Assembly (NCBI GenBank): GCA_001775095.1
Contig: MFCA01000025.1
Coordinates: forward strand, 181,232-245,231
Origin: Candidatus Curtissbacteria bacterium RIFOXYA1_FULL_41_14
Lineage (GTDB): Bacteria > Patescibacteriota > Microgenomatia > Curtissbacterales > GWA2-41-24
DNA length: 64,000 nucleotides
Reading direction: 5' to 3'
The first letter of the stretch is position 1; the number at the start of each line of letters is the position of its first letter. This document shows, piece after piece, positions 3,564 to 23,931 of this stretch. The notes under the pieces were generated by a model. That model was not told the origin of the DNA. It was given only the letters and a program-made list of their open reading frames with translations, and did no database searches. A program made the translations under genes and the position numbers.

Positions 3564-5330
3564 TTACTTATTTATTGTAGCATATATTCTTCTAATTCCT
3601 GAACCTAATGACTCTTCTTTTATTATTTTAAATTTACCCAGCTTTCCGGTTGTTTTTGCATGAGGACCACCGCAAAATTCTTTGGAAAAAGCATCTTCGA
3701 TTTTATCTGTCGGTGAGATATAGTAAACGCTGACTAAATCGCCATATTTTTGCGCAAATAAGCCAATCGCTCCGGCCTCTTGGGCAGCTTCTTTGGGTAT
3801 AGTCTTTTGATAAACTTTAAGATCATTCTTAATTTTCTGATTGACAATATTTTCGACTTTTTTGATCTCGTTATCGGTTAATTTTTCTTGGTGGCTAAAA
3901 TCGAACCTTAATCTTTCTTCGGTAATATGAGACCCGGCTTGATGGACATGCGTGCCCAGGACTTCTCGAAGCGCCTGATGCAGTAGATGAGTAGCGGTGT
4001 GAAGTTTGACAGTTTTATCTGATTGACTTACCAAACCTCCTTTAGTTTTTTGACCAGCCTTCTGGGAAAGTTTCTGGTGTGCTCTAAATTCTTTCTCAAA
4101 ACCAACTATGTCTATCTTTTTGTTATTTTCCTCAGCAAGTTCTATGGTTAATTCAATTGGGAAACCATAGTTTTGATAAAGATCGAAAGCATACCGGCCG
4201 CTGATGTCGCCTTTTATCTTTTCAAACTGCCGGATACCTGAAGCAAGTGCCTTTTTAAATTTGTCTTCCTCTTTGGCAAGTTCCTCTAAAATTGTAGCTT
4301 GAAATTCCCCAAGATTTGGATAAATTTCGCCATAAGTCTTAATAACAATTTTAGCCAAATCATTTAAGAAATCCCTTTTAATTTGTAAAAGGGCAGCATG
4401 ACGAATCGCTCTTCTTACTAAACGCCTGAGAACATAACCGCGCTCTACATTTGAAGGAATAACTCCATCTAATATTAGAAAAACAGCTGCTCTCAGATGG
4501 TCAGCTACTATGCGAGCTGATTTTACATTGAAGTTTTCAGATAAATCTTCGATTTTTTTGGCAAGAGGCAAGAAAACATCAATTTCGTAAATCGAGGGGG
4601 TATTTTGAAGAACCATCAATATGCGTTCCAGACCCATACCAGTATCGACATTTTTTTGCTTAAGAGGCCTAAAACTTCCATCGGCCTGACGATCGTACTG
4701 CATAAAAACATCGTTCCAAATTTCGACAAATCGATTTGAATTTCCGGCCGGATCAACTTTTCCTTGACTTGGATTCAGGTCATAAAACATTTCGGTGTCC
4801 GGGCCGCAAGGACCTGTCTGGCCAATCGGTCCCCACCAATTTTGACTCTTGCCATATTTAAAGATATGATCCTCGTTTACCCCAAGTTTTCGCCAGATTT
4901 CGAATGACTCTTGATCAAATGGGGCATCGTTATCACCGGCAAAGACCGAAACATAAATCCTTTTGGAATCAAGTTTTAAGAAGTTTATTAAAAATTCATA
5001 CGACCAGGAAATTGTTTTTTCTTTCCAATAGTCGCCCAGCGACCAATTGCCCAGCATTTCGAAAAAAGTATTATGGACATTATCCCCAACATCTTCAATG
5101 TCATCAGTTCGCAGGCACCTCTGGATATTGACAAGTCTTTGACCTTCTGGATGGGACTGGCCTAAAAGATAAGGAACTAGGGGGTGCATGCCGGCAGTTG
5201 TGAAAAGAACACGTTGAGTCGGGGCAAACTCAACATTTTCCAGAGGGACCAGAGATGCAGATGGAATAATTTTATGCCCTTTCTCTTCAAAAAATTTAAG
5301 AAATTTCTGGCGAAGTTCAATAGATTTCAT
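3564..5330 (-). CDS. alaS: Alanine--tRNA ligase (catalytic and editing domains; lacks the C-terminal C-Ala domain)
   Basis: N-terminal MKSIELRQKFLKFFEEKGHKIIPSASLVP...FTTAGM... and the editing-domain zinc motif HTATHLLHQALREVLGTHVHQAGS...CGGPH. At 588 aa it is shorter than canonical AlaRS. Confidence 0.9.
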   Translation of the reverse strand: MKSIELRQKFLKFFEEKGHKIIPSASLVPLENVEFAPTQRVLFTTAGMHPLVPYLLGQSHPEGQRLVNIQRCLRTDDIEDVGDNVHNTFFEMLGNWSLGDYWKEKTISWSYEFLINFLKLDSKRIYVSVFAGDNDAPFDQESFEIWRKLGVNEDHIFKYGKSQNWWGPIGQTGPCGPDTEMFYDLNPSQGKVDPAGNSNRFVEIWNDVFMQYDRQADGSFRPLKQKNVDTGMGLERILMVLQNTPSIYEIDVFLPLAKKIEDLSENFNVKSARIVADHLRAAVFLILDGVIPSNVERGYVLRRLVRRAIRHAALLQIKRDFLNDLAKIVIKTYGEIYPNLGEFQATILEELAKEEDKFKKALASGIRQFEKIKGDISGRYAFDLYQNYGFPIELTIELAEENNKKIDIVGFEKEFRAHQKLSQKAGQKTKGGLVSQSDKTVKLHTATHLLHQALREVLGTHVHQAGSHITEERLRFDFSHQEKLTDNEIKKVENIVNQKIKNDLKVYQKTIPKEAAQEAGAIGLFAQKYGDLVSVYYISPTDKIEDAFSKEFCGGPHAKTTGKLGKFKIIKEESLGSGIRRIYATINK

Positions 5331-5746: not shown

Positions 5747-6036
5747 TTTCCTTTTGTCCCCTCTGTCCCTTTTGTGTCTTTTGACCCCTTTTTCAAAAGA
5801 TGTGCAATACCAACACCGGCGGCCATAGCAGTAAATAAATTGCCGGCAGATTCGATTGGTTTTTTAACCTGGCCGACCAAATCATCGGCATCGTCAAAAA
5901 GTCTGTTTAAACGAAACAACGTTCTTCTAAGATCCTTAAGGACGAAATAGACCTGGAAGCCAATTACCACTAAAAAAACTGTTAAAACAATGATTACAGC
6001 AAGAAGAACTATTTGAGTGCTATCGACGGGCAGCAT
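5743..6036 (-). CDS. DUF948-like small membrane protein
   Basis: 97 aa with an N-terminal TM helix followed by a coiled segment. DUF948 proteins commonly precede ytxH. Confidence 0.5.
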   Translation of the reverse strand: MLPVDSTQIVLLAVIIVLTVFLVVIGFQVYFVLKDLRRTLFRLNRLFDDADDLVGQVKKPIESAGNLFTAMAAGVGIAHLLKKGSKDTKGTEGTKGK

Positions 6037-6087
6037 AATAGTTAGTCAAAGTCAACAGTCAAAGTTAAAAGTGACTCTGACTTATTG

Positions 6088-6117
6088 TGTATACTTCAAT
6101 TCCCTACTTCTTGTCAA
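6088..6117 (-). promoter_or_regulatory. Candidate sigma70-like promoter (TTGACA-N18-TATACA on the minus strand) upstream of the DUF948-ytxH-alaS gene string
   Basis: Minus strand reads TTGACAagaagtagggaattgaagTATACA. A hairpin follows (agtcagagtcacttttaactttgact). Confidence 0.3.
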
Positions 6118-6162
6118 TTCCTGGGAACTTGATAAGTTTATGTCATCAGATAAAAGGGGGTT

Positions 6163-6786
6163 TTAGCGAACCAGGCGAATTGTGCGGGTGGCTTTGGATT
6201 TTGGGGAAAGGCGTTTGGAGGCGATTATTTCTATGATGTTTTGACCGTCTTTAAGTTCTAGCTGGTAGGAAAAGTTACCCACCTCGTCTATTGGCACAAA
6301 CATACCTTCTATAGCAACTTGCGCATCTTTTTGGGTTTGTCCAGAAATCACCACGTAGGGAATAGATGTTGTTGAATCATCTTGCGGTGCGTAAATTTCC
6401 AGTTTTGGTGCAGATAGCAATGATAAATATTGAACTGTTAAGTAACCAACAAAGGTAAATACTACTGCGAAAATGGTAATTGTTAATAACTTATTGTATG
6501 TAAACACTATTTTTTTAGGCCGTCTTATGACTGCCTTGGAAGGGTATTTCTTTTCATCGTACTCCCTCCTGTAAAGTGCAGTCATGTGACTGGGGTCAAG
6601 ACCTAAATACGCCGCATAACTTTTAATAAAGCCTTTAACAAAAGGGGGCTCAGGCAAATTTTGCCAATCTCCTGCCTCAAGAGCCTCTAAATATTCTTTT
6701 TTAATGTGCAAGTCCCGGGCTATCTTTTCCAGAGAATACTTTTTTATGCGTCTTTGCGAAGAAAAAACCTCGCTCGTGGTCTTCAT
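6163..6786 (-). CDS. RodZ-like cytoskeleton protein (N-terminal HTH, TM segment, C-terminal domain)
   Basis: HTH-like N-terminus (LEKIARDLHIKKEYLEALEAGDWQNLPEPPFVKGFIKSYAAYLGLD) resembles RodZ. A TM helix (LLTITIFAVVFTFVGYLTV) and an extracytoplasmic tail follow. Confidence 0.55.
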   Translation of the reverse strand: MKTTSEVFSSQRRIKKYSLEKIARDLHIKKEYLEALEAGDWQNLPEPPFVKGFIKSYAAYLGLDPSHMTALYRREYDEKKYPSKAVIRRPKKIVFTYNKLLTITIFAVVFTFVGYLTVQYLSLLSAPKLEIYAPQDDSTTSIPYVVISGQTQKDAQVAIEGMFVPIDEVGNFSYQLELKDGQNIIEIIASKRLSPKSKATRTIRLVR

Positions 6787-6799
6787 GAATTTTTTATAA

Positions 6800-8905
6800 T
6801 CAGGAGGCTTGGGTTTGGGCCTGTATGTATTCCTCAGCGTCTTTTACCAGGACATCGCGGGGTTTTGATCCCTCACCCGGACCAACAATTCCAGCCATTT
6901 CTAACTCATCCAAAAGCCTGGCGGCTCGAGCGTAACCAATACGAAGTCTTCTCTGTAGAAGTGATGCGGAAGCCCTATCATATTGGCAAATTGTCCTCAC
7001 GGCCTCTTCGAAAAATTCATCCTTTGCACCCCCAGTTACGCCAGCAATTTTACCAACAGGCATTTGAGTAACTTCTTCGGTATATTCCGGCTCAATACCT
7101 GATCTTTTGAGAAAGGTAATTAAATTCCTTATCTCGGTATCCGAAACATAAATACCCTGAATTCTTGAAGGTTTTGAAGCATCAGGCGGCACGTAAAGCA
7201 TGTCGCCTTTTCCTAACAACTTCTCGGCACCGGGCTGATCGAGTATAACTCTTGAGTCGACCATTGAAGATACATTAAAGGCAATTCTGCAAGGAATATT
7301 AGCCTTAATTAGTCCAGTAATAACGTCGACAGATGGTCTTTGGGTTGCAACCACCAAATGGACACCGGTGGCCCTAGCCATAGCGGCAAGCCTAACGATG
7401 GCATTTTCAACCTCAACAGGGGCAAATTCCATTAAGTTTTGCAATTCGTCAACAATAATAATGATGTAGGGAAGTGCTTGAAAACCAGAAAGTTCATTAT
7501 ACCCGTTTATATTTCTAACCTGGGCTTCATGAAAGAGTCTGTAGCGTCTATCCATTTCCTGCATAGCCCATTTTAGAGCAGATAGAATTTTTTCAGGCTC
7601 AATAATAACTGGTGTTAATAGGTGAGGAATATCATTATATTCAGAAAGTTCAACACGCTTCGGGTCAACTAGAATAAGCTTAACTTCATGCGGGCTAGCT
7701 CTAAAAAGTAAAGTTGCGATAAAAGAATTTAAAAGAACCGATTTTCCCGAACCGGTCGTGCCGGCGATTAGAACATGGGGCATTCTAGCTATATCGGAAA
7801 TAACTGTGTTGCCTGAAACATCCAAGCCGAGAGCAACTGCCAACTTAGACTTATTGGTACGCAGAGAATCGTCCATCAAAGCATTTTTAAGAGTCACCAT
7901 TTCCGGGCTAAGATTGGGGATTTCTACTCCGACTAGGGATTTTCCGGGAATTGGTGCTTCAATTCTGACATTACCTGTTGAGGTTGCCAAAGCTAGTGCA
8001 AGGTCGTTTTGCAGTGCCAGAACTTTGGAGAGTTTTATGCCCATAGGAATTTCTAGGGCATACTGGGTGACAGTCGGACCAGGATTAACTTCAACAACTT
8101 TGGCGGTTATTCCAAAACTTTCAAGTGTCTTTTCAATTGTTTGGGCGTTATGTTTGACATTACCACGATTCGCAGACAGGCCTTTTGAATCATTAAGAAG
8201 AGATAAGGGAGGATATTGCCAGGCTTGGGTTTGTCCAGGCGCGTTGACGACTACGCTTTGGCCCAAGCCAACGTCTTTTTCTAAAGGTCGATCCTGCGAT
8301 CTTTGCTTCTGATCAACTCTATCGGTTGGCGACTTGATAACAAATTTAGGTTTTCCTAAGCCCAATAATTTAAATATTTTCTCTTGAGAGGACTTCGTTA
8401 GTTTTTTTAATTTTGTGTAAATAGTAACAATTGCATTGACTGCTTGATCGAAACTTGTGTTAAGCGCAATTATCAAAGAGATAAAAAAGGCAAAGAAGAG
8501 TACAAAAAAAGCTCCAACAGGAGTCACCAATGATTTAATAACCAGCCATAAATTAGAACCTAGAAGCCCGGCGAGATTTTCTCCAAAAATAGACATTAGT
8601 GCAATAAATGAAAGCAAGACGCCTAACGAGCCAAGTATTATATTTGGTTTGGAAAAACGGCTTTTTACACCAAGCAATGGTAAGCTAAATGTAATTATCA
8701 AGAATGGAACCAGAAACACGCCAATACCAAACAAATTGTCGAAGTAATCATGAAGCGAAAGTAAAATACCGGTTTGAGTAAAAAAGGATAGAAGAAGAAG
8801 TAAAGATCCTGCCAGCAATACAAAACCTATTATGGTAGAAATTGTTTTCTTCTCGAGAGAAAGTGGCGGATTTTTGTATTTCTTATATCTTCTCATTCTG
8901 GGCAT
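6800..8905 (-). CDS. ftsK: DNA translocase FtsK/SpoIIIE
   Basis: N-terminal TM segments, the motor domain with Walker A GTTGSGKS, and a C-terminal gamma (winged-helix) domain ...LLQRRLRIGYARAARLLDELEMAGIV. Confidence 0.9.
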   Translation of the reverse strand: MPRMRRYKKYKNPPLSLEKKTISTIIGFVLLAGSLLLLLSFFTQTGILLSLHDYFDNLFGIGVFLVPFLIITFSLPLLGVKSRFSKPNIILGSLGVLLSFIALMSIFGENLAGLLGSNLWLVIKSLVTPVGAFFVLFFAFFISLIIALNTSFDQAVNAIVTIYTKLKKLTKSSQEKIFKLLGLGKPKFVIKSPTDRVDQKQRSQDRPLEKDVGLGQSVVVNAPGQTQAWQYPPLSLLNDSKGLSANRGNVKHNAQTIEKTLESFGITAKVVEVNPGPTVTQYALEIPMGIKLSKVLALQNDLALALATSTGNVRIEAPIPGKSLVGVEIPNLSPEMVTLKNALMDDSLRTNKSKLAVALGLDVSGNTVISDIARMPHVLIAGTTGSGKSVLLNSFIATLLFRASPHEVKLILVDPKRVELSEYNDIPHLLTPVIIEPEKILSALKWAMQEMDRRYRLFHEAQVRNINGYNELSGFQALPYIIIIVDELQNLMEFAPVEVENAIVRLAAMARATGVHLVVATQRPSVDVITGLIKANIPCRIAFNVSSMVDSRVILDQPGAEKLLGKGDMLYVPPDASKPSRIQGIYVSDTEIRNLITFLKRSGIEPEYTEEVTQMPVGKIAGVTGGAKDEFFEEAVRTICQYDRASASLLQRRLRIGYARAARLLDELEMAGIVGPGEGSKPRDVLVKDAEEYIQAQTQAS

Positions 8906-8949
8906 ATATTTAATTTTACCTTAAATGTCATTAAATTGCTATAGGGTAC

Positions 8950-10011
8950 TTACCAGGAAGGCAAATATTGCTTTAGATTGTCTTTGGATAAAACTAATCT
9001 TTCGATTTTACCTTCCACTTTTAATTTAGCGATTTTGCGACAAATTCCATTGATCGTCCTGTCCAATGTTCTCATACCTGCATCAAAACCTAAAGGTCTG
9101 ACGATTTCCGGCCAAACTCCTTCTTGAAATTCCAGGTCTTGCTTTGATAAACCTGAAGCAACTATTGCCCTGGGTAGAAGATAGCTTTTGCCGATAATTG
9201 TTTTCTGTTCATCGCTGTAGGAAGGTAACTCAATAAGCTCCAGTCTATCTAAAACTGCTGTGGCGATACCTGCAGTATTATTGGCAGTAGCAATAAACAA
9301 TACTTCACTTAGGTCAAACGGGTAATCTATAAAATGATCAAGGAATTTGCTATTTTGCTCGGGGTCTAAAAGTTCAACCAACACTCCCATAATATCTCCC
9401 TTAGCTTCGTTGGTAATTCTGTCGATCTCGTCAAGAAGAATTACAGGGTTTTTGGTACCAATTCTTCTTAAAACTTTCATGATCTGGCCCGGCTCAGCGT
9501 CGGAGAATGCACGGGATCTTCCTCGAAGTTGCAGTGCCTCCCCCATTCCGCCCATCGGAATTCTTCCAAATTGGCGGCCAAGTGCCTGGGCAATTGAAAA
9601 GGCCATTGTTGTTTTGCCTGTGCCGACCAATCCAACCAAAAGTAAGGCCGGCGCTTTAGTAGAGTGCGGATTTGGATCTTGTTGATTTTGTTTCAAATTA
9701 ACAACAGAAATGTATTCTAAAATTCGTTCTTTGATGTTTTCTAAGCCGTAATGATTAGTGTCTAACACTTTCTTAGCGTGATCAAGGGAAAGAATATCCT
9801 GACTTCGTTTCTCCCAAGGAAGCGCAATAATCCAGTCCAAATATCTGGCGACTTGATCATATTCTTGGGAATAACCTTGAGACGCCGCAAATTTAACTAA
9901 TCTTTCAATTAGTGACTTAGCTCTTTGGTGGAGGTCGGGCGGAATTTTGGCAACATTAAGCTTTGACTCGAGAATCTTAATATCTTCCAGCAAGGCAGGC
10001 GAGGAATTCAC
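8950..10011 (-). CDS. Lon-family AAA+ ATPase domain protein lacking the Lon protease domain
   Basis: Collinear with the Lon ATPase region: YLDWIIALPWEKRS...LDTNHYGLENIKERILEY..LLLVGLVGTGKTT (Walker A)...ILLDEIDR (Walker B)...ELLDPEQNSKFLDHF...IATANN...LDRLELIELPSYSDEQK. The protein ends after the alpha-helical subdomain, with no Ser-Lys protease domain. The start overlaps the upstream ORF by 4 nt (ATGA). Confidence 0.7.
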   Translation of the reverse strand: MNSSPALLEDIKILESKLNVAKIPPDLHQRAKSLIERLVKFAASQGYSQEYDQVARYLDWIIALPWEKRSQDILSLDHAKKVLDTNHYGLENIKERILEYISVVNLKQNQQDPNPHSTKAPALLLVGLVGTGKTTMAFSIAQALGRQFGRIPMGGMGEALQLRGRSRAFSDAEPGQIMKVLRRIGTKNPVILLDEIDRITNEAKGDIMGVLVELLDPEQNSKFLDHFIDYPFDLSEVLFIATANNTAGIATAVLDRLELIELPSYSDEQKTIIGKSYLLPRAIVASGLSKQDLEFQEGVWPEIVRPLGFDAGMRTLDRTINGICRKIAKLKVEGKIERLVLSKDNLKQYLPSW

Positions 10012-11000
10012 TTTAGGTTAATTAAACCAGAAAACTCACTACTTCTCAAAATAAAGTCAAGTTCTCTAACTTGGTTAATTGATCTTGAATAATTATTGCT
10101 CCCTGAAAGAATAAAGTTTGTAAACACATCGCCGGTATTTTGGTCGTTATTTTTAAAAAGGATTATTAAAGATGCGAGAGGGGTATCTTTAGGCGGAAAA
10201 TCAAGTGAGGGCGTCTGAGATTTAAGGGTATTGATTAACTCCTGGGCAGCTTCATATGATGAAGTAAAATATATCAAATCCCCCTCTTGAAAAAATACAC
10301 AAGTTAAATCTTCTCCGTTTAAGCTCTGGGGTAATTTAAACAAATACAATTTAATGTTATCTGTTAATTCTTCTTTGTAGGCAGACTCGTCAGATTGAGG
10401 ATCATTGATATCTTTTAAAGCCAAAAAATCTATATTGGGATTTTTAAAAATAAGTGTAAAGTCGGAATTTGGACCGAATACTACAAGATATTGACCTTGG
10501 TCAGAGGCCAGATTCTTTGAAAGCCAAGCGGAAAATTCTTGGGATAAAATTAATCTTGATTTGATAAAAGCTATGAGATTGCCGCTAAAAACCGCCAAGT
10601 TGGTTGAGGTTGGAATTTTAATACTTTTGGCCTCTTGATCTTGTAGAAAAGACGTATTTACTTTACCTTTAAAGGCGATTTTTCCAGGCAAGATATTTAG
10701 ATTTGCTTTAACTGGCGTTGCGAACGTTAGTTTCGCACTGGAAGTGGCATCCAGTTCAAACTCAACTCCCTTGGCAACACTTTGGGGTAATCCTAATTTT
10801 TCTAGAACTTTCAGAAATTCACTTTGGTCATTGTTAGTAATATCGAAATTCAACTTAAATTCATTCTCGTTGGCGATTAGTGTTACCTGACTTGTATTTT
10901 TATTTTGGATAATAACCAGGACAGCTATGAAGATTAAAAAGAGTAAAGTCAGAGAGAGGGACAAAAATCTCCCAACGGGCGGGTGAAGATTTTTCTTCAT
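10008..11000 (-). CDS. Hypothetical membrane-anchored protein (N-terminal TM), translationally coupled to the Lon-ATPase-like ORF
   Basis: N-terminal signal anchor LSLSLTLLFLIFIAVLVII and a 300-aa extracytoplasmic region without recognised motifs. Its stop overlaps the start of 8950..10011. Confidence 0.45.
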   Translation of the reverse strand: MKKNLHPPVGRFLSLSLTLLFLIFIAVLVIIQNKNTSQVTLIANENEFKLNFDITNNDQSEFLKVLEKLGLPQSVAKGVEFELDATSSAKLTFATPVKANLNILPGKIAFKGKVNTSFLQDQEAKSIKIPTSTNLAVFSGNLIAFIKSRLILSQEFSAWLSKNLASDQGQYLVVFGPNSDFTLIFKNPNIDFLALKDINDPQSDESAYKEELTDNIKLYLFKLPQSLNGEDLTCVFFQEGDLIYFTSSYEAAQELINTLKSQTPSLDFPPKDTPLASLIILFKNNDQNTGDVFTNFILSGSNNYSRSINQVRELDFILRSSEFSGLINLK

Positions 11001-11002
11001 GA

Positions 11003-13270
11003 TTAATATCTTTTAGGGGGTCGTCTTCGGTCAAACCCTCTTGGGCGATTTCGATCAAACTTTCTGGGGCTAAAATTTCTTCTTCCACCACTAAAATCTT
11101 GTGGCTGTGAGTCCGCGGCATCTTTACCGAATCTGGCTGACAAATTGACTCTCCCTTGATCGTCTACTTCGACAACTCTGACTTTAAGCTCCTGTCCAAT
11201 CTGAACCACATCTTCAACTTTGTTAACCCTGTAGGGGGCAAGTTGCGAAATATTAACCAAACCTTCTTTCCCCGGAAGGATTTCAACCATCGCTCCAAAT
11301 GGAAGAATTCTGGTCACCTTGCCTTGATATTCCTCTCCGGGTTTAGCTTCTTTAACGATTCCCTCAACCCATTCTGCCGCTTTTTTACAAGCTTGAGGGT
11401 CTTTACCGCTTATTGTCACTGTTCCTTCATCGTTGATGTCGATTGCACTACCGGTAGCGGCAATAATCTTGTTTATTGTTCTTCCTCCCGAACCGATCAC
11501 CTCGCCGATTTTTGCTGGATCGATTTTAACTAAAATAACAGTAGGTGCAAATTTAGAGATTTTTTCTCTAGATATTGGAATAGCCTTGAGAATTTTTTCT
11601 AGAATGGAAAGTCGGGCAATTTTTGCTTTTTCAACTGCTTCCTTAACGATCTTAATAGGAATACCATCTAGTTTGATATCCATCTGGATTGCAGTTATTC
11701 CCTTAGATGTGCCGGCTATCTTAAAATCCATATCTCCCTGAGCATCTTCCTGATAAGCAATATCGGTTAAAAGAACATATTTTGAGGGATTTTTCTTATC
11801 TGTTACCAAACCAATTGAAATTCCGGCTACTGGTTCTTTAATCGGGACTCCGGCATCCATTAATGCCAACGTTGACCCACAACTTGCCGCCATAGAAGTT
11901 GATCCGGCTGAAGATAAAACTTCTGAAACGACTCTTATAGTGTAAGGGAATACATCTGTGGAAGGTAATACCGGTACAAGTGCTTTTTCGGCCAGTGCGC
12001 CATGTCCAATTTCCCTTCTTCCAGGCGGGCCCAATCTTCGAACTTCGCCTGCCGAAAAGGGAGGAAAGTTGTAGTGATGCATATACTTTTTGGTATTTTC
12101 TCCTTCCATATGTTCTATCAGTTGTTCCAGAGCCGGCGACCCTAAGGTTACGATTGAGAGCACTTGAGTTTCGCCTCTTTGGAAAAGGCCTGAACCATGA
12201 GTTCTTGGTAGAAGACTAACCTTGGCAGTAATTGGACGAATTTCATCAGGGGTGCGGCCATCAGTTCGCTTTTGACCCGCAAGAATTTTTTCCCTCAAGA
12301 AATCGGCAACAACCTCCTCTAAAGCACGGGCGAGCTGTTTTGAAGTAATTTCACTACTGTCATCTTTGACAAATTCCTCCTCAAGAAGTTTTAGTGACTC
12401 GTCAAACCATTTTTCATCTTGTGAAATGCCTGGTTTTTCCAGGTCTTTGATAATTTCTCTCTCAATAAAGTCTTTTACTTGCTTCTGGACAGTGACTTCG
12501 AGTTTATCCGGCTTATATTGTTGTTTTTCAACACCTGCTTCCTTGGTAAAATCGACTATAAGATCACTTACCTGTTTGTTTTTTTCAAGACCAAATTCAA
12601 TTGCACCCACGATTGACTTTTCATCTGTCTGATTGGCTCCAGCTTCAATCATGACGACTTCGTTTTCAGAAGACACCAGAACTAAATCAAGATTGGAAAA
12701 CTCTTCTTCACTTTCCGTTGGGTTTATGAAATAACCGCCGTTCTGTTGACCAACTCTGCATCCTGCTATTGGACCATTCCAAGGGATATCCGAAATAGAA
12801 AGAGCGGCTGAAGTCGCTATCAGTGCAAGAATATCCGGATCGTTCTCCTGATCAACAGAAAGAACAGTAATGATAACCTGAACCTCTGCCTGATAGTCTT
12901 TAGGAAAAAGTGGTCTTATGGAACGATCGATTAGCCTGGAAGTTAAAACGGCTTTTTCCGTGGGACGACCTTCACGTTTGATGAATCTGGAGGTTGAAAT
13001 TTTTCCCCCGGCATAAAGCTTTTCTTCATAATCTACGGCGAGAGGAAAAAAGTCTACGTCTGGTGAGGCTGGTTGAGAAACAACGGTTGCCAGTACTACA
13101 GTTTCCCCGTAGGTTGCCAGGATTGCCCCGTTTGCGTGAAGTGCTAGCTCTCCTGTTTCAAGAGTTAGCTTTCTACCTGCAAGTTCAATTTCTTTGTGAA
13201 CAACTTTTTGCATCGAATATAGTAATTTATGGAGAATTTGGAGCGTTAGAAATCGGGTATTAAGAGCCAA
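11003..13270 (-). CDS. pnp: Polyribonucleotide nucleotidyltransferase (PNPase) with an R/G-rich C-terminal tail
   Basis: Two RNase PH domains, then KH and S1 domains (...GKVTRILPFGAMVEILPGKEGLV...), then an RRNFSPRKFDRNRPRGFDRRRPPKRY tail. Lies directly downstream of rpsO as in the canonical operon. Confidence 0.95.
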   Translation of the reverse strand: MALNTRFLTLQILHKLLYSMQKVVHKEIELAGRKLTLETGELALHANGAILATYGETVVLATVVSQPASPDVDFFPLAVDYEEKLYAGGKISTSRFIKREGRPTEKAVLTSRLIDRSIRPLFPKDYQAEVQVIITVLSVDQENDPDILALIATSAALSISDIPWNGPIAGCRVGQQNGGYFINPTESEEEFSNLDLVLVSSENEVVMIEAGANQTDEKSIVGAIEFGLEKNKQVSDLIVDFTKEAGVEKQQYKPDKLEVTVQKQVKDFIEREIIKDLEKPGISQDEKWFDESLKLLEEEFVKDDSSEITSKQLARALEEVVADFLREKILAGQKRTDGRTPDEIRPITAKVSLLPRTHGSGLFQRGETQVLSIVTLGSPALEQLIEHMEGENTKKYMHHYNFPPFSAGEVRRLGPPGRREIGHGALAEKALVPVLPSTDVFPYTIRVVSEVLSSAGSTSMAASCGSTLALMDAGVPIKEPVAGISIGLVTDKKNPSKYVLLTDIAYQEDAQGDMDFKIAGTSKGITAIQMDIKLDGIPIKIVKEAVEKAKIARLSILEKILKAIPISREKISKFAPTVILVKIDPAKIGEVIGSGGRTINKIIAATGSAIDINDEGTVTISGKDPQACKKAAEWVEGIVKEAKPGEEYQGKVTRILPFGAMVEILPGKEGLVNISQLAPYRVNKVEDVVQIGQELKVRVVEVDDQGRVNLSARFGKDAADSQPQDFSGGRRNFSPRKFDRNRPRGFDRRRPPKRY

Positions 13271-13372
13271 AACCTTGATTCTTACTACTCAACTTCCAAC
13301 AGCCCAATTCCCTTTCTTTGCTTATAAAACCTGTATTATTATACGTTAAATTAAGATAGATAGCAAGTTAGT

Positions 13373-13642
13373 TTACTTGGGTAGTCCTAATTTACCAATA
13401 ATATCTTTATACCTTTCTGGGGCTTTTCTGGTCAGATAATGAAGGAGTCTGCGTCTTTTGTTAATCATCGATAATAGACCCCTTCGAGAATGATCGTCAT
13501 GGCCATGAGATTTTAGATGGGCACCAACATTTTGAATCCGCTGAGAAAGCAGGGCTACTTGAACTTCCGGTGAGCCGGTATCACCCTCGTGGGTTTTAAA
13601 TTTGTCAATTACTTGCTTTTTATTCTCGGCAGTTTTAGCCAT
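13373..13642 (-). CDS. rpsO: 30S ribosomal protein S15
   Basis: 89 aa with [53 protein letters not shown], the S15 signature. Confidence 0.95.
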
Positions 13643-13669
13643 ATAAGTAACTTAGGATGATACTATAAA

Positions 13670-14599
13670 TTAATTCTCTCTGTCAAAGGATTTTGACCCT
13701 TTATAAATTCTCGGTGGTTTCAGCCAATTCCGTGAGACAGCTGCATTTTTATATTCTTGTTTACTTTCAATTTCTTGTATCTTGGGAGTTCTATCCAAAA
13801 TATCAGGTTCAGTAACAGTTGAGGGTTGATAAGTTGGTTCTTGAGTATTTGACATTCTGGCAAAGCTTGACCTTGATACTCCAAATTTTAATAACCAGGC
13901 GGCTATTTCAAGTGCCTGTGAATTAATCCTTCCGGGAGAAAAATTCTGGGTCCCTTCAGATATCCCCGTATAAAGGTTGTAGGCTATGTCCTCGTTTACC
14001 GGTAATGCCAAATCCTGGATCATTTTGGCAGTTAATTCGCTAATTGTTGCAGCTTGGGGATCGTTTATATTAACCTGAGCAAATTTTTGATTCAATGTGC
14101 CTTTGCAAATATTTATAATGAAAGCTTCTGAACTAATATTTTGTTCGTGAGTAATTTGACTGCGCAAATCTTCTTGGGAGTCAAAGCCAATAGAAAAAAT
14201 CAAGTCTGCTTGTGTTATTGTCTCCTTTAATCTAATTTGATCTTTGCTTATTCCTCTTGATCCGGGAATTGGATGAATAAGTATTTTCAGTTGATTTCCT
14301 TCTAAAAAATAAGTTACCTTATCAACATTTTCTACCGCATCGTCAATTAAAACAGTTAAGCCACTTTTTCCTTGGGTCTTACCAATTTTATCTACCCCAT
14401 AAATCTTTTGAGCATCGGCAACTGAAGGAATACGAGAAAATATTGAAACATTTTTACCAAGTTTGACTAGAGAAAGATATAACGCAAGACCCGAAGCAAG
14501 TCCGTCCAGTTGTGAAGAATCGGAAACAACAATAGACACAGAGCCTGCTTTAGTAATTTTTTCCAATGCCTTTTCGTTCGAATTTTGATCCATTGCCAT
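13670..14599 (-). CDS. DHH/DHHA1-family phosphoesterase-like protein (NrnA-like); catalytic motifs appear degenerate
   Basis: Size, position in the nusA-infB-rpsO-pnp string and an N-terminal ...SVSIVVSDSSQLDGLASGLALYLSLVKLGKNV pattern resemble NrnA/DHH proteins. No clean DHH or GGGH motif is seen. Confidence 0.45.
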   Translation of the reverse strand: MAMDQNSNEKALEKITKAGSVSIVVSDSSQLDGLASGLALYLSLVKLGKNVSIFSRIPSVADAQKIYGVDKIGKTQGKSGLTVLIDDAVENVDKVTYFLEGNQLKILIHPIPGSRGISKDQIRLKETITQADLIFSIGFDSQEDLRSQITHEQNISSEAFIINICKGTLNQKFAQVNINDPQAATISELTAKMIQDLALPVNEDIAYNLYTGISEGTQNFSPGRINSQALEIAAWLLKFGVSRSSFARMSNTQEPTYQPSTVTEPDILDRTPKIQEIESKQEYKNAAVSRNWLKPPRIYKGSKSFDREN

Positions 14600-14658: not shown

Positions 14659-16092
14659 TTAACCCAAAGATTCTATTATATCTCCTTCTTTAAAGTCAAG
14701 AGCTGGATCTATTCCTAGCCCACAGTCCTGACCATTAGATACAGATTCAATGTTTTTCTTGAATCGTTTAAGAGAAATTATTTTTGTTTCCATAGAGGAA
14801 CCATCGGCTCTTTTGACTACAATGTTATCGCCATTTTTTAATTTGCCATGGGTAACCATAACACCGGCGATTTTTTTCCCTTCGATATCAAAACTGGCGA
14901 CTATTTTTGCCCGGCCAGTGATTTTTAATTCCTGTTTAGCTTTTTCAAAACCAACAACAACATCTTCTATGTCAGATAAAAGATCATAGATGACGTTATA
15001 TTTTTTTATAATAACTCCCTCTTTGTCTGCCTGAGAATTCGCTGCTTTATCGACCCGGACATTGAAAGCAAGTATTGGGGCTTGAGCGACTTTAGCAGTT
15101 GTGATATCAGCTTGGGTAACTTCTCCAACCCCGGCGGAAACTACCAGTAAATTCTCAGGTAAATTGGTAAGTATAGCCTCGAGTGAGCCAGTTACATCAG
15201 CTTTAATAATAACCTTGAACTTGGCCCGTGATTCTTCTGCTTTGGCAATAATGTCAGCAAACGAGGCAGATTTTTGGCTTTCGTGAGTTTTCGTTATAGT
15301 TAAATCATGAACAATACTTCCCACCTCTAAAACTTTTTTGAACCCCAATACCTCAACTGGTTTCCCTGGTTCAGCTTGCGGAATGTTTTTACCCCTATCG
15401 TCAATCAGTGCTTTTACAGTAATTGTCTCATTGTCTTTTTTAATCTTTTGTCCTAATTTGAGAGTGCCTTCTTTAATAATGACGGTGTTCACAGAACCTC
15501 GATTTTTGTCCAAAAAGGATTCAACGACAACTGCCTCAAGCGGGGCATCCGGAAGTGATTGTTGAGGTGATAACTGCCACAGAAGAAGGATCATTTCTAA
15601 TAAATCTTCAATACCTTTGCCTTTTGGAGCCGATACTTCAACAGTTGGAACTTTCCCGCCAAAACTCTCCACGATAATTCCCTCTCTTTCCAGTTCTTTC
15701 TTGACCTTTTCGAGGTTAATATTGGGAAGATCAGTTTTAGTAAATGCGACAATTGCCGGCTTATTAGCATTTTGGGCATGTTTGATGGCTTCAACCGTCT
15801 GAGGTTTAACTCCTTCAGTCGCAGCAACAACCAAAATAACAATATCAGCAACTTCAGCGCCGCGGGAACGCATTTTTTCAAATGCAGCGTGACCCGGGGT
15901 ATCAACAAACGTGATTGGTTTATCCTGAAAAGTTATTTGGTAGGCACCAATATGTTGAGTGATTCCGCCATGTTCGCGTCCTACAATATTGGTCTTGCGG
16001 ATCGCGTCAAGAAGAGTTGTTTTCCCATGATCAACATGACCCATTAAGGTCACAATTGGCGGTCGAAAATTGTCTTTTTCCTGCTTTTCCAT
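14659..16092 (-). CDS. infB: Translation initiation factor IF-2 (G domain to C-terminus; no long N-terminal region)
   Basis: PIVTLMGHVDHGKTTLLDAIRKTNIV...DTPGHAAF...NKPAIVAFTKTD, with the IF-2 C-terminal beta-barrels. Confidence 0.9.
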   Translation of the reverse strand: MEKQEKDNFRPPIVTLMGHVDHGKTTLLDAIRKTNIVGREHGGITQHIGAYQITFQDKPITFVDTPGHAAFEKMRSRGAEVADIVILVVAATEGVKPQTVEAIKHAQNANKPAIVAFTKTDLPNINLEKVKKELEREGIIVESFGGKVPTVEVSAPKGKGIEDLLEMILLLWQLSPQQSLPDAPLEAVVVESFLDKNRGSVNTVIIKEGTLKLGQKIKKDNETITVKALIDDRGKNIPQAEPGKPVEVLGFKKVLEVGSIVHDLTITKTHESQKSASFADIIAKAEESRAKFKVIIKADVTGSLEAILTNLPENLLVVSAGVGEVTQADITTAKVAQAPILAFNVRVDKAANSQADKEGVIIKKYNVIYDLLSDIEDVVVGFEKAKQELKITGRAKIVASFDIEGKKIAGVMVTHGKLKNGDNIVVKRADGSSMETKIISLKRFKKNIESVSNGQDCGLGIDPALDFKEGDIIESLG

Positions 16093-19025: not shown

Positions 19026-19871
19026 TCAGGATAAATTCTCCAATTCCTCGAGTAAACGTTTTTGGTCACGATTTAATCTACTTGGAACATGAATTCTGAT
19101 TATGACGTAGTGGTCGCCTTGGCCGTGGCCGGAGACGCGGCGGATGCCTTTGCCACGCAAGCGGATTTGAGTACCGGCGCCAGTGCCAGAGGGAATACGA
19201 ATTTTGACAGGTCCGTCAATCGTCTCAATGTCCTTAACTGTCCCCAGTGCCGCTTGAGAAAAAGAAATTTCTTCCTCAGATATAACATCGTAGCCTCTTC
19301 TTTTAAATTTTCTGTGAGGAGATACCTGACACACAATTACAAAGTTTGAAAAGCGAATTTCCGAACCGTCATCAACACCGGGGGGAATTTTAATCTTTTG
19401 TCTCTTGCCTTCAATTTCAACTTCTTTGGCGACCCCGTGAACCGCTTCCATAAAATCTAAGTTGAGCACGTAGCGGGGCAAGCGGGCTTGACGGCCAAAT
19501 GGTGATCTTTCGCCAAAAACCATTTCAAAAATATCAAAAGGGTCGGCAAATCCGCCAGAATCAAAACCGCCGAAGTCGCCGCTTGACCAACTATAAGTTC
19601 GAAAACCGCCCCCGCCAGGTGGAGCACCAGCACCGCCAAATCCACCGCCGGGTTGAAAGGCAGAATGGCCGAATTGATCGTAAGCTCCCTTTTTCTGAGG
19701 ATCTGAAAGAACTTGGTAAGCTTCGTTTATTTCCTTGAACTTTTCCTCTGCACCGGCCGATTTATCAACGTCAGGATGATGCTTACGCGCCTTAGTACGA
19801 TATGCCTTTTTTAGTTCGTCGGGACTTGCATTTTTCCCGACACCAAGAACTTCGTAATAGTCTTTTTTCAT
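19026..19871 (-). CDS. dnaJ: J-domain chaperone (DnaJ/CbpA-like; G/F-rich region, no zinc-finger domain)
   Basis: J domain [35 protein letters not shown] (HPD motif) and a G/F-rich linker, followed by C-terminal substrate-binding domains. CxxCxGxG repeats are absent. Confidence 0.8.
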
Positions 19872-20024
19872 GAATTCAAAATTTCTAATTTCTAAATCCT
19901 AAATCCTAAATAAATCCAAATATCAAAATACAAAATACAAAATAATTTTAGTGCAAATTCCCCTTTTTTGCACATTTGAATTTTGAAATTGTTTAGAGTT
20001 TAGAATTTAGAGTTTAGGATTTGA
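19872..20024. repeat. AT-rich quasi-palindromic intergenic element (AAATCCTAAA / TTTAGGATTT units around a central hairpin)
   Basis: Left arm ctaaatcctaaatcctaaat..., central hairpin gtgcaaa-ttcccctt-tttgcac, and right arm tttagagtttagaatttagagtttaggattt, which is the imperfect reverse complement of the left arm. Confidence 0.55.
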
Positions 20025-20456
20025 TTAGTTGGAGACTTTCTTGCCAGCCAAATCCTGTCCGCCATATGTCGCTGTAGTCTTGTTGACTTTAAACCCTAAC
20101 TCTCCAACTTTCTGATTGTCTGCTAAGATTTCAAATCTGTAGAGGCCGGCGTGCTGCAGGGGAAAATTAACCAATTCCGTTAGCAAATTAGCTTTGCCGT
20201 TTTGGCCAAGCCTCAGGTTTAATTCTTTAGCTGGAAATTCCGGCTGGCCTTTTTCGGGCGGGATGAGCTTTAACTTTAAGGAATACTCCTGGCCTGGTTC
20301 GCCTTTTAGGACCGCAACCAAAAACATCCGAGGCCAGGTGGTCGGCAGATTGGCTACAAAAAACTGGTCAAAAACGCCGATTATAGAAAGTTTTTGCTCT
20401 TGGGAAACGGACGCATGATCACAAAGTACAAATAGTTCTGTTGAAAGTTTTGCCAT
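20025..20456 (-). CDS. Hypothetical 143-aa protein embedded between dnaK and dnaJ
   Basis: An ORF of clean length with no overlapping alternatives, co-oriented within the hrcA-grpE-dnaK-X-dnaJ string. No recognisable motif (MAKLSTELFVLCDHASVSQEQKLSIIGVFDQFF...). Confidence 0.5.
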   Translation of the reverse strand: MAKLSTELFVLCDHASVSQEQKLSIIGVFDQFFVANLPTTWPRMFLVAVLKGEPGQEYSLKLKLIPPEKGQPEFPAKELNLRLGQNGKANLLTELVNFPLQHAGLYRFEILADNQKVGELGFKVNKTTATYGGQDLAGKKVSN

Positions 20457-20465
20457 TTGTCATCC

Positions 20466-22382: not shown

Positions 22383-22423
22383 ATATATCCTAATTTATCC
22401 GAATTTGATTGTCCGAATTTATC

Positions 22424-22957
22424 CTAATGCTCTAACTTAGTATATTCGGATTCATTCGTATTATTTTCATTCGTATACATTTGTGTGTTTTTTCCTTCTT
22501 CGGCTTTTTCTTCAGTCTTTTGGTCTATCTGCTGCCTCTCAACTGCAACTTGCGCCGGCCGCAAGACCTTACTATTTATTTTATAACCTTTCCTGATAAC
22601 CTTGGCAATCATGCCATCATTTTGGCCTTCGACAACTGATGTTGCTTCGTGTAAATTCGGGTCAAATTTACTTCCCTGTGCTTCTATTTCTTCAACTCCT
22701 TCTGAGGATAAAACATCTCTAAACTGCTTAATAACCATTTCCAAACCCTCATCCTTTAAGTGCTTCTGCGCATTTTCAAGATTATCAAGAACCGGCAGAA
22801 ACCTTTCAATTAGAATTGCACTTGAGAGTTGGCCAAGTAGCTTTCTTTCCTCTTCTACGCGTCTTTCAAGATTTTGGTAGTCCGCAAGAGCTCTTTTTAA
22901 CTGCTCCTCAAGCTGTTTACTTTTACTGTCGATTTTTGGCAATTGTTTTTTACTCAT
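22424..22957 (-). CDS. grpE: Nucleotide exchange factor GrpE
   Basis: Coiled-coil N-terminus (QLEEQLKRALADYQNLERRVEEE) and a C-terminal beta-domain. Sits between hrcA and dnaK. Confidence 0.85.
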   Translation of the reverse strand: MSKKQLPKIDSKSKQLEEQLKRALADYQNLERRVEEERKLLGQLSSAILIERFLPVLDNLENAQKHLKDEGLEMVIKQFRDVLSSEGVEEIEAQGSKFDPNLHEATSVVEGQNDGMIAKVIRKGYKINSKVLRPAQVAVERQQIDQKTEEKAEEGKNTQMYTNENNTNESEYTKLEH

Positions 22958-22961
22958 AAGA

Positions 22962-23681: not shown

Positions 23682-23815
23682 CGTAAAATTCCTTCAGAAT
23701 TTAGTTATGAGTTCTGAGGGATGAGTAGTGAGTTTGATGTAATTTCTCAATCCCCAAATCTCAGTACTCAATACTTTTTAATGGCGAGTGGGCAGTTAGG
23801 GCATCTCGCCGTTAT

Positions 23816-23892
23816 TGTCCAGATACTATACAGTATCTGGTTTAAACAGATATCGTATGGTATCTGTTTAAACGGGTACCGTACGGTGCCTG
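23816..23892. repeat. Three consecutive palindromes in the hrcA 5' leader, of which two are tandem copies of a ~30-bp palindromic unit
   Basis: CCAGATACTatacAGTATCTGG followed by GTTTAAACAGATAtcgtatggTATCTGTTTAAAC, then GGTACCGTACGGTGCC. Units 1 and 2 share CAGATAYYRTAYRGTATCTG plus GTTTAAAC. Confidence 0.55.
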
Positions 23893-23893
23893 T

Positions 23894-23921: not shown

Positions 23922-23931
23922 TCGTTGTCAA
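23903..23931 (-). promoter_or_regulatory. Candidate hrcA operon promoter (TTGACA-N17-TACATT on the minus strand) with CIRCE in the spacer and -10 region
   Basis: Minus strand reads TTGACAacgattagcactcgtggTACATT. This is the classic arrangement in which CIRCE overlaps the -10 region and the transcription start. Confidence 0.5.

What the first reader, a model, noticed from the sequence alone, without database searches (positions are those of the whole stretch)
8950..11000. Lon ATPase module without a protease domain, translationally coupled to an unknown membrane protein
ORF 8950..10011 aligns collinearly with the Lon AAA+ module: Walker A GLVGTGKTT, Walker B ILLDEIDR, sensor regions, and the LDRLELIELPSY helical subdomain. 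It stops where the Lon Ser-Lys peptidase domain would begin, and no peptidase-like ORF follows; ftsK starts 45 bp later.

Its start overlaps the stop of a 330-aa membrane-anchored protein by ATGA. That suggests either a two-component membrane AAA+ machine or a decaying Lon gene.
Basis: partly seen in the sequence, partly recalled or inferred. Interest (0 to 1): 0.55.

Follow-up and report, generated by a model that had tools for sequence, protein, structure and literature searches.

The report
Protease-less Lon ATPase of Patescibacteria
This gene encodes only the ATP-driven motor part of the Lon protease. It is not a broken gene but a strongly conserved stand-alone protein found across the tiny-genome Patescibacteria (CPR). 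The membrane protein next to it is a lineage-specific neighbour, not a conserved partner.

Summary
On the minus strand, 8950-10011 encodes a 353-aa protein that matches the LonA AAA+ module end to end. It has no N-terminal substrate domain and no S16 protease domain, and the window holds no remnant of either. One detail is wrong: the 4-nt overlap with the upstream ORF is GTGA (GTG start), not ATGA.

It is not a decaying gene or an assembly artefact. More than 120 relatives at 68-100% identity are all 345-360 aa. Its dN (0.11) is like that of ftsK (0.10) and pnp (0.15), with synonymous sites saturated. Short Lon-ATPase-only proteins form one clade across Microgenomates, Dojkabacteria, and Saccharibacteria- and Nomurabacteria-labelled genomes, and none carries Lon_C.

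All ATPase and ring-communication residues are kept. The substrate-gripping pore loop (R-R-T-Y-I/V-G) is replaced by an acidic S-R-x-x-P-D/E-A-E-P-G loop.

The 330-aa membrane protein accompanies the ATPase only in Curtissbacteria, plus a Daviesbacteria homologue. It evolves about three times faster and is predicted to lie mostly outside the cell. The widely conserved context is rpsO-pnp-[Lon-ATPase]-(udg)-rnj-ftsK-rodZ, or, in five loci, divergent from groES-groEL.

Most likely it is a ring ATPase used for non-proteolytic protein remodelling. That function is inferred, not shown. I rate it a new variant of a known kind, of moderate interest.

The parts
8950..10011 (-). Stand-alone LonA-derived AAA+ ATPase, 353 aa, GTG start; no N-terminal substrate domain, no S16 protease domain
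   Evidence: AF2 model pLDDT 84.6; Foldseek TM 0.80-0.87 to Lon AAA+ modules, including the excised E. coli AAA+ construct 6n2i (TMq 0.85/TMt 0.88)
9682..10011 (-). N-terminal helical region (aa 1-110), equivalent to the LonA NTD-3H helices before the AAA+ fold; keeps Y57/W60 (= Y294/W297 of E. coli/Y. pestis Lon)
   Evidence: residue roles from PMC7239648
9610..9633 (-). Walker A GLVGTGKT (canonical Lon: GPPGVGKT)
9487..9519 (-). Diverged pore-loop 1: RSRAFSDAEPG in place of canonical HRRTY(I/V)G(A/S)MPG; F169 = Y398, S170 = I399, D171 = G400
   Evidence: role of Y398/I399 from PMC7239648
9418..9441 (-). Walker B ILLDEIDR (D194/E195 = D423/E424)
9244..9282 (-). Sensor-1 N244 (9280-9282) and trans Arg finger R256 (9244-9246)
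8953..9225 (-). Lon-type lid (small alpha subdomain) with sensor-2 R314 (9070-9072); protein ends at the AAA/protease linker
10008..11000 (-). 330-aa protein with one N-terminal TM helix (aa 9-34) and an alpha/beta domain; no family hit; Curtissbacteria/Daviesbacteria-specific; overlaps the ATPase start by GTGA; 2 nt after the pnp stop
11003..13270 (-). pnp (polynucleotide phosphorylase), the widely conserved upstream neighbour of the ATPase in CPR
13373..13642 (-). rpsO (ribosomal protein S15), start of the conserved block
6800..8905 (-). ftsK, 44 nt downstream of the ATPase
6163..6786 (-). RodZ-like HTH_25 protein, end of the conserved block

Best explanation
The gene encodes a functional, stand-alone ATPase derived from LonA. 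It belongs to a family conserved across Patescibacteria (CPR) that has lost both the N-terminal substrate-recognition domain and the S16 protease domain. It keeps the whole nucleotide-hydrolysis and subunit-communication apparatus: Walker A/B, sensor-1, trans Arg finger, sensor-2, the E447-type acidic bridge, and the PS1-beta-hairpin/NTD-3H aromatic contacts. A conserved trans Arg finger only makes sense in an oligomer, so it most likely still forms a Lon-like hexameric ring that cycles ATP (inferred). The hydrophobic Tyr-Ile/Val-Gly tip of pore-loop 1, which in Lon grips and threads polypeptides, is replaced by a conserved acidic x-Pro-Asp/Glu-Ala-Glu-Pro-Gly loop. I therefore propose that it works as a non-proteolytic ATP-dependent protein remodeller or chaperone-like factor, a 'Lon reduced to its ATPase'. 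It may act on basic clients rather than feeding a degradation chamber (inferred, not shown). The 330-aa membrane-anchored protein upstream is a fast-evolving, probably surface-exposed, lineage-specific gene inserted into the compact rpsO-pnp-...-ftsK operon-like block. It is co-transcribed but not a general partner.
For: Identity as a Lon AAA+ module. No protease or N-domain remnant in the window or in 50 CPR loci totalling 614 kb. Conservation: more than 120 clusters at 68-100% identity, all 345-360 aa. dN 0.11 versus ftsK 0.10 and pnp 0.15, pS about 0.71, dN/dS about 0.05. The identical gene lies on many independent contigs. Family: 28 representatives form one NJ clade separate from full-length Lon. 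None has Lon_C or the LON N domain, including the longer members of 529-669 aa. 39 GTDB species genomes labelled Shapiro-, Ames-, Levy-, Davies-, Roizman-, Nomura-, Saccharibacteria or 'Patescibacteria group' carry 344-472 aa versions. Catalytic motifs are invariant while pore-loop 1 is rewritten; the aromatic is kept in Curtissbacteria (about 100 of 105) but variable (R/H/Q/S/N/K/F/Y) in the wider clade. Residue roles come from PMC7239648. Proteostasis hint: in 5 loci the gene is divergent from groES-groEL. Partner not general. Partner dN is 0.30, three times that of its neighbours. Its N-terminal tail is unconserved, with invariant columns starting only after the TM helix.
Against: No biochemical or genetic data exist for any member, and no paper on it was found. 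Ring formation, ATPase activity and remodelling are all inferred. In Curtissbacteria the pore loop still has an aromatic (F169 here), so threading cannot be excluded. I could not scan the rest of the genome for a separate protease partner or for a second, full-length lon. The most common genomic context (pnp, rnj, udg, ftsK) is nucleic-acid related, not proteostasis related. The NJ tree is a simple distance tree without support values.
Confidence: 0.6

Rival explanations
1. Split Lon. The ATPase ring docks in trans onto a separately encoded peptidase (a stand-alone S16 domain or another self-compartmentalising protease) elsewhere in the genome, as ClpX does with ClpP or HslU with HslV.
For: HCLR-clade relatives ClpX and HslU work this way (established knowledge). 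The ATPase is fully competent by motif. Curtissbacteria keep an aromatic in pore-loop 1.
Against: No S16-like or Lon N-domain coding sequence lies within about 6-10 kb of the gene in the window or in any of 50 CPR loci. The Tyr-hydrophobic-Gly threading motif is not conserved across the family. The only full-length CPR-labelled Lon found (Falkowbacteria P0325) has no closer relative among the 120 best hits listed than 44-45% identity, and the named ones are Desulfobacterales-type Lons, so it is an isolated case.
Confidence: 0.15
2. Nucleic-acid-linked role. The ATPase acts with the RNA-decay or chromosome-handling genes that flank it (PNPase, RNase J, UDG, FtsK), for example as an ATP-dependent assembly or remodelling factor of an RNA-degrading complex.
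For: pnp lies within 3 genes in 24 of 39 CPR loci and rnj in 20 of 39, on the same strand with short spacers. LonA itself binds DNA: 6n2i is deposited as 'DNA-binding ATP-dependent protease La'.
Against: From my own knowledge, not tested here, rpsO-pnp ... rnj-ftsK is an old syntenic block of unrelated housekeeping genes in Bacillota and Actinomycetota, so adjacency may be inherited order. An acidic pore loop is ill-suited to nucleic acid. Curtissbacteria lost rnj and udg from the block but kept the ATPase. Other lineages place it next to groES-groEL or elsewhere.
Confidence: 0.12
3. Two-component membrane machine. The cytoplasmic ATPase ring is tethered to or works through the 330-aa membrane-anchored protein.
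For: A 4-nt start/stop overlap is conserved in four Curtissbacteria lineages down to 72% ATPase identity. A homologous partner sits at the same place in one Daviesbacteria genome. Other lineages sometimes have an unrelated TM-anchored protein just upstream: L005 DUF4012 and L026.
Against: Most CPR lineages have no such gene. The partner has only 41 detectable relatives against thousands for the ATPase. It evolves 3 times faster. Its pre-TM tail is short, variable in length and unconserved. The positive-inside rule puts the globular domain outside the cell (inference). 4-nt overlaps occur in 4 of 39 gene pairs in this window. The upstream TM proteins of L005 and L026 are not homologous to it.
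Confidence: 0.1
4. Decaying lon pseudogene or assembly truncation.
For: The domain architecture looks like a fragment of LonA.
Against: Length is uniform across hundreds of genomes. Purifying selection is strong. Catalytic residues are intact. No remnants are found. Gene order is identical on independent assemblies.
Confidence: 0.01

Closest known systems
LonA protease (endopeptidase La, TIGR00763), AAA+ module
   Same: 35-45% identity and a collinear alignment over the whole protein (E. coli residues 252-579). Same fold: TM 0.80-0.87, and 0.85/0.88 to the excised E. coli AAA+ construct 6n2i. Same Walker A/B, sensor-1, Arg finger, sensor-2, DPEQN acidic bridge and NTD-3H aromatic pair.
   Different: No LON N-terminal domain (PF02190) and no S16 Ser-Lys protease domain (PF05362). 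It scores 327 bits against a cutoff of 608. Pore-loop 1 Y-I/V-G is replaced by x-P-D/E-A-E. Walker A is G-L-V-G-T-GKT instead of GPPGVGKT.
ClpX / HslU (HCLR-clade unfoldases encoded separately from their peptidase)
   Same: A stand-alone AAA+ polypeptide of the same clade without its own protease domain (established knowledge).
   Different: Those keep a G-Y-V-G pore loop and have a dedicated peptidase partner, usually encoded nearby. Here the threading motif is not conserved and no peptidase gene is nearby.
Proteolytically inactive Lon acting as a chaperone (yeast Pim1 / bacterial Lon active-site mutants)
   Same: The idea that the Lon ATPase alone can assist protein assembly or remodelling.
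   Different: Those are engineered mutants that still carry the N and protease domains. This is a natural, domain-minimal protein.
LonB and LonC subfamilies
   Same: Lon-family variants with altered domain sets.
   Different: From my own knowledge, LonB has a membrane insertion in the AAA+ module and LonC a degenerate ATPase, and both retain the protease domain. This protein has an intact ATPase, no TM segment and no protease.
Multi-AAA+ Lon proteins (e.g. P0162, Candidatus Dependentiae)
   Same: Lon-type AAA+ modules with unusual pore loops, found in the same search.
   Different: They have 2-3 tandem modules plus a C-terminal Lon_C domain. They fall outside the short clade.

Membership tests
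LonA protease (endopeptidase La) | N-terminal LON substrate-binding domain (PF02190) | tested here: not met
   No Pfam hit. tblastn with 40 Lon N-domains against the window found nothing below E=0.1.
LonA protease (endopeptidase La) | AAA+ module with Lon-type lid | tested here: met
   PF00004 E=5e-18 and PF22667 E=2.5e-9. PDB Lon hits at E=1e-76. Foldseek TM 0.80-0.87.
LonA protease (endopeptidase La) | C-terminal S16 Ser-Lys peptidase domain (PF05362) | tested here: not met
   No Pfam hit. The ORF ends at the lid, and 44 nt later ftsK starts. No remnant in any frame of the window.
LonA protease (endopeptidase La) | Score above the curated equivalog cutoff (TIGR00763, 608 bits; NF008053, 891 bits) | tested here: not met
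   327 and 250 bits.
LonA protease (endopeptidase La) | Pore-loop 1 aromatic-hydrophobic pair (Y398-I399) followed by Gly | tested here: not met
   The query has F169-S170-D171. Across the clade the first position varies and the motif is x-P-[DE]-A-E-P-G. Roles from PMC7239648.
Catalytically competent ring-forming AAA+ ATPase (HCLR clade) | Walker A Lys/Thr, Walker B Asp-Glu, sensor-1 Asn, trans Arg finger, sensor-2 Arg | tested here: met
   K133/T134, D194/E195, N244, R256 and R314 are invariant in the diverse family alignment.
Catalytically competent ring-forming AAA+ ATPase (HCLR clade) | Hexamer formation and ATP hydrolysis | not testable with these tools
   Only inferred from conservation of the trans-acting Arg finger and the E447-type bridge (E218).
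Pseudogene / decaying lon | Frameshifts, in-frame stops, domain remnants, relaxed selection, patchy presence | tested here: not met
   (dN/dS about 0.05).
Split Lon (ATPase and peptidase on separate genes) | An S16 peptidase gene adjacent to or co-occurring with the ATPase gene | tested here: inconclusive
   Not adjacent in the window or in 50 CPR loci. The rest of the genome could not be searched.
Membrane-anchored AAA+ two-component system with the 330-aa protein | Partner gene co-conserved with the ATPase across the family | tested here: not met
   The partner is present only in Curtissbacteria and one Daviesbacteria locus and is absent from the other CPR loci.
Anti-phage defence ATPase (PADLOC families) | Significant full-length match to a defence-system model | tested here: not met
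   Only weak partial P-loop hits (IetA 24.5 bits; TRIP13 20 bits). The partner has no hit.

The most novel reading that the evidence does not exclude
Patescibacteria as a group have swapped the universal Lon protease for a protease-free Lon-derived AAA+ ring with an acidic, non-canonical pore loop. It is kept as a core, slowly evolving housekeeping gene. It would be the only Lon-family protein in most of these genomes, and it would perform an ATP-dependent remodelling job, possibly on basic clients such as ribosomal or nucleoid proteins or the neighbouring RNA-decay enzymes. No such job has a described counterpart in model bacteria.
Probability: 0.3. Interest if true: 0.65.

Novelty: new variant of a known kind. 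Interest (0 to 1): 0.5.

Why it matters
Lon is one of the most conserved quality-control proteases, and its ATPase and peptidase are classically fused. This family is a natural one in which only the motor survives. It is under selection as strong as on ftsK or pnp, and it sits in organisms with about 1-Mb genomes that discard anything dispensable. That argues the Lon AAA+ ring has an essential activity independent of proteolysis. It also offers a minimal natural system of about 350 aa for studying that activity. The rewritten acidic pore loop could show how substrate handling can be retuned within the HCLR clade. Databases currently label these proteins inconsistently ('hypothetical', 'AAA family ATPase', 'ATP-dependent Lon protease'). 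The last label would wrongly credit CPR genomes with a Lon protease in metabolic or proteostasis reconstructions.

Tried and rejected
1. I looked for protease or N-domain remnants with tblastn, using 40 Lon C-termini and 40 N-termini against the window. I repeated it with 10 of each against 50 CPR loci. Nothing was found.

2. I tried to learn whether a full-length lon exists elsewhere in the genome, but no tool can scan a whole genome. A CPR-labelled full-length Lon (Falkowbacteria P0325) was used as a query. Apart from its own 91%-identical cluster mate, the 120 best hits listed are only 42-45% identical, and the named ones are Desulfobacterales-type Lons, with no Microgenomates. This is suggestive but not conclusive.

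3. I compared the 330-aa partner with DUF4012 and with other upstream TM proteins. They are unrelated.

5. I searched for a CIRCE/HrcA operator near the gene in the window and in the groES-adjacent loci. There were no matches.

6. The promoter/terminator scan of 6000-14000 did not exceed shuffled expectation. It can only be said that no obvious terminator separates rpsO from rodZ.

7. Rfam found no RNA family in the window.

8. PADLOC gave no defence-system membership.

9. Six literature searches found no paper describing a protease-less Lon in CPR. only supplied Lon residue roles.

10. A complex prediction of the pair was not possible, because the tool folds single chains only.
Full report
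**1. What is in the sequence**

All genes in the region lie on the minus strand and are tightly packed.
- rpsO is at 13373-13642.
- pnp is at 11003-13270.
- A 330-aa ORF is at 10008-11000 and starts 2 nt after the pnp stop.
- The 353-aa ORF of the finding is at 8950-10011.
- ftsK is at 6800-8905, 44 nt further on.
- A RodZ-like HTH_25 gene is at 6163-6786.

There is no in-frame ATG before residue 136, so a non-ATG start is unavoidable. A TTG six codons in is the only alternative (P0008).

The window is about 92% coding. Four of 39 same-strand neighbour pairs overlap by exactly 4 nt. The overlap therefore says little about function on its own.

The identical protein and gene order occur on many independent contigs. 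24 were read, and the protein is indexed in 109 blocks of the collection; one is GCA_001775005.1. Relatives at 70-76% identity are named Candidatus Curtissbacteria. The window is therefore from a Curtissbacteria-type member of the Patescibacteria (CPR).

**2. The protein is a complete Lon AAA+ module and nothing else**

- Pfam finds AAA plus Lon_lid only.
- NCBIfam aligns it to positions 256-567 of the 795-position 'lon' equivalog at 327 bits, far below the 608-bit cutoff.
- It aligns without large gaps to B. subtilis LonA (E=1.8e-76) and to E. coli LonA residues 252-579.
- An AlphaFold2 model (pLDDT 84.6) superposes on Lon AAA+ modules with TM 0.80-0.87. It superposes on the experimentally excised E. 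coli Lon AAA+ domain 6n2i with TM 0.85/0.88.

The natural protein is thus almost exactly the construct structural biologists cut out of Lon. It comprises the last helices of the N-region (NTD-3H), the alpha/beta subdomain and the lid. It ends three residues after the lid alignment, at the linker to the protease domain.

tblastn with the C-terminal 230 aa and N-terminal 240 aa of 40 full-length Lons found no protease or N-domain remnant in any frame of the 64-kb window. Precomputed Pfam annotation of about 60 kb of the window shows no Lon, Clp or Hsl peptidase either.

**3. It is not a pseudogene or an artefact**

- The 120 best database clusters (68-100% identity) are all 345-360 aa.
- Against a homologue at 84% amino-acid identity, dN is 0.11. 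ftsK gives 0.10 and pnp 0.15 in the same pair of genomes. Synonymous sites are near saturation (pS 0.71), so dN/dS is about 0.05.
- An exhaustive profile-free search of 1.8 billion representatives shows further short proteins (348-486 aa) at 44-53% identity.
- In a distance tree of 183 AAA+ modules, 28 short-type representatives form one clade apart from canonical LonA. This is a simple NJ tree without support values.
- None of the clade members has Lon_C or the LON N domain. That includes longer ones with extra N- or C-terminal sequence (529-669 aa).
- A scan of one genome per GTDB species returned 39 CPR loci with 344-472 aa versions at 40-58% identity. Their labels are Shapiro-, Ames-, Levy-, Davies-, Roizman-, Nomura-, Saccharibacteria and 'Patescibacteria group'. 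The remaining hits were ordinary 765-860 aa Lons from other phyla.
- Two further members are named Candidatus Dojkabacteria.

**4. What is kept and what is changed**

Residue numbering is E. coli/Y. pestis, and residue roles are from Shin et al. 2020 (PMC7239648).

The query keeps the following:

| Element | Query residues | Lon equivalent |
|---|---|---|
| Walker A | K133/T134 | Walker A |
| Walker B | D194/E195 | D423/E424 |
| Sensor-1 | N244 | N473 |
| Trans Arg finger | R256 | R484 |
| Sensor-2 | R314 | R542 |
| Inter-subunit acidic bridge | E218 | E447 |
| PS1-beta-hairpin residues | F227, D229 | Y456, E458 |
| NTD-3H aromatics | Y57, W60 | Y294, W297 |

The substrate-gripping tip of pore-loop 1 is changed. 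Canonical H-R-R-T-Y398-I399-G-(A/S)-M-P-G becomes R-S-R-A-F-S-D-A-E-P-G.
- Within Curtissbacteria the aromatic is usually retained: Y or F in about 100 of 105 sequences.
- Across the wider clade that position is R, H, Q, S, N, K, L, F or Y.
- The conserved signature is instead x-P-[D/E]-[A/S]-E-P-G.
- Walker A is also clade-specific: G-L-[V/A/Q]-G-x-GKT instead of GPPGVGKT.

A conserved trans Arg finger and acidic bridge imply that the protein still works as an oligomeric ring that hydrolyses ATP (inference). Loss of the Tyr-hydrophobic-Gly motif, the N domain and the protease together argue that classical 'recognise-thread-degrade' is no longer its job (inference).

**5. The neighbour**

- The 330-aa protein has no Pfam, NCBIfam or PADLOC hit and only 41 detectable relatives.
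- Its AF2 model is confident (pLDDT 84, pTM 0.80). It has one N-terminal TM helix (aa 9-34) followed by a mixed alpha/beta domain.
- The only structural match is marginal: the Treponema lipoprotein TP0453, E=1.2e-3, TM 0.33/0.41.
- The pre-TM tail is short, basic, variable in length and unconserved. Invariant columns start at N46. By the positive-inside rule the globular part lies outside the cell (inference).
- Its dN is 0.30, three times that of its neighbours.
- Within Curtissbacteria the gene and its 4-nt overlap with the ATPase are conserved down to 72% ATPase identity.
- A homologous N-terminal half sits at the same position in one Daviesbacteria genome (hhalign probability 95%).
- Elsewhere it is absent.

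In 24 of 39 CPR loci pnp lies within three genes of the ATPase, usually directly upstream. In 20 of 39 RNase J follows it, sometimes after a UDG-family gene, and then come ftsK and rodZ. The common block is therefore rpsO-pnp-[Lon-ATPase]-(udg)-rnj-ftsK-rodZ. Curtissbacteria lack rnj and udg at this place and carry the membrane protein gene between pnp and the ATPase.

In five other loci, including a Roizmanbacteria genome, the ATPase is transcribed divergently from groES-groEL, with 58-256 nt between them. No CIRCE operator was found there or in the window.

Upstream TM proteins in two further lineages (a DUF4012 protein in L005 and a zinc-ribbon/TM protein in L026) are not homologous to the partner.

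**6. Interpretation**

Best supported (confidence about 0.6 for the whole statement, about 0.9 for 'functional conserved stand-alone Lon-derived ATPase'): this is a ring-forming AAA+ ATPase that has been freed from proteolysis. It probably acts as an ATP-dependent remodeller or chaperone-like factor, and its acidic pore loop suggests basic clients. The membrane protein is a lineage-specific, probably surface-exposed gene sharing the transcript.

Rivals:
- **Split Lon working with a peptidase encoded elsewhere (0.15).** No such gene lies near the ATPase in 50 CPR loci totalling 614 kb. The rest of the genome could not be searched.
- **A role tied to the flanking RNA-decay or chromosome genes (0.12).** The synteny is striking. 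However, from my own knowledge, this block is an old arrangement of unrelated housekeeping genes in Bacillota and Actinomycetota.
- **A pseudogene (0.01).**

On whether a full-length lon exists in the same genome, I could only show three things. None is in the 64-kb window. None is in the flanks of any CPR locus. The one CPR-labelled full-length Lon I found (Falkowbacteria, 822 aa) has no closer relative among the 120 best hits listed than 44-45% identity; the named ones are Desulfobacterales-type Lons, and no other CPR proteins appear. This hints that canonical Lon is rare in CPR but does not prove it.

**7. Comparison and novelty**

The protein works like, and descends from, the LonA AAA+ module. 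It fails three defining features of LonA membership: the N domain, the S16 domain and the equivalog cutoff. It also fails the pore-loop signature.
- It resembles ClpX and HslU in being a protease-less HCLR polypeptide, but it lacks their GYVG loop and a nearby peptidase.
- It differs from LonB and LonC, both of which retain the protease.
- It is not a defence ATPase.

I found no paper describing it. Databases call it 'hypothetical protein', 'AAA family ATPase' or, misleadingly, 'ATP-dependent Lon protease'.

I rate it a new variant of a known kind, with interest 0.5. It is a clear, well-conserved and apparently undescribed family with an unusual pore loop in a poorly understood group of bacteria. 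Its function is inferred only, and the fold and chemistry are familiar.

Noticed in passing
Proteins P0162, P0165, P0166, P0168, P0171 (no window coordinates): Lon proteins with two or three tandem Lon-type AAA+ modules followed by a single Lon_C protease domain. P0162 (1113 aa) is from Candidatus Dependentiae. Several modules have degenerate pore loops or Walker motifs.
   Followed up: partly
L023, L024, L036, L037, L040 (about 3.7-7.1 kb in each locus): In these CPR genomes (L037 is Roizmanbacteria) the short Lon-ATPase gene is divergently adjacent to groES-groEL, with 58-256 nt between them. No CIRCE operator is detectable.
   Followed up: partly
L007-L045 (e.g. L013 2.9-11.7 kb): The block rpsO-pnp-LonATPase-(UDG family)-RNase J-ftsK-rodZ is conserved across Microgenomates and some other CPR. 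Curtissbacteria lack the rnj and udg genes at this place, and no RNase J was seen in the annotated ~60 kb of the 64-kb window.
   Followed up: partly
L008, L009, L011, L012, L014 etc., and L030: Many loci with clear CPR synteny and CPR-type proteins carry record titles such as 'uncultured Gammaproteobacteria bacterium' or 'Candidatus Methanoperedens sp.'. These are probably wrong taxonomic labels on binned MAGs.
   Followed up: no
P0325 / P0224 (Candidatus Falkowbacteria, 822 aa): A canonical full-length Lon assigned to a CPR genome. Apart from its own cluster mate, the best hits listed are only 42-45% identical, and the named ones are Desulfobacterales-type Lons. This is compatible with horizontal acquisition or mis-binning.
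   Followed up: partly
window ~34.8-35.6 kb, ~50.5-51.2 kb and ~52.3-53.0 kb: Three toxin-antitoxin-like pairs lie in the 64-kb window of a small genome. Two are PhdYeFM antitoxin plus PIN; the third is an unannotated 75-aa ORF plus PIN. Coordinates are approximate, mapped from loci L090 and L091.
   Followed up: no
window 3564-5330 (-) and 14659-16092 (-): Unusually short housekeeping proteins: alanyl-tRNA synthetase of 588 aa and IF-2 of 477 aa. From my own knowledge, the usual bacterial sizes are about 870 and about 700-890 aa. This is consistent with CPR domain loss.
   Followed up: no
L005 6133-7995 (+): In a distant CPR relative a 620-aa TM-anchored DUF4012 protein ends 5 nt before the Lon-ATPase gene. 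In L026 a 301-aa zinc-ribbon/TM protein overlaps its start by 1 nt. Neither is homologous to the Curtissbacteria partner.
   Followed up: partly
window 19026-24000 (-): An hrcA-grpE-dnaK-(DUF6941)-dnaJ chaperone cluster lies about 9-14 kb upstream of the Lon-ATPase on the same strand.
   Followed up: no
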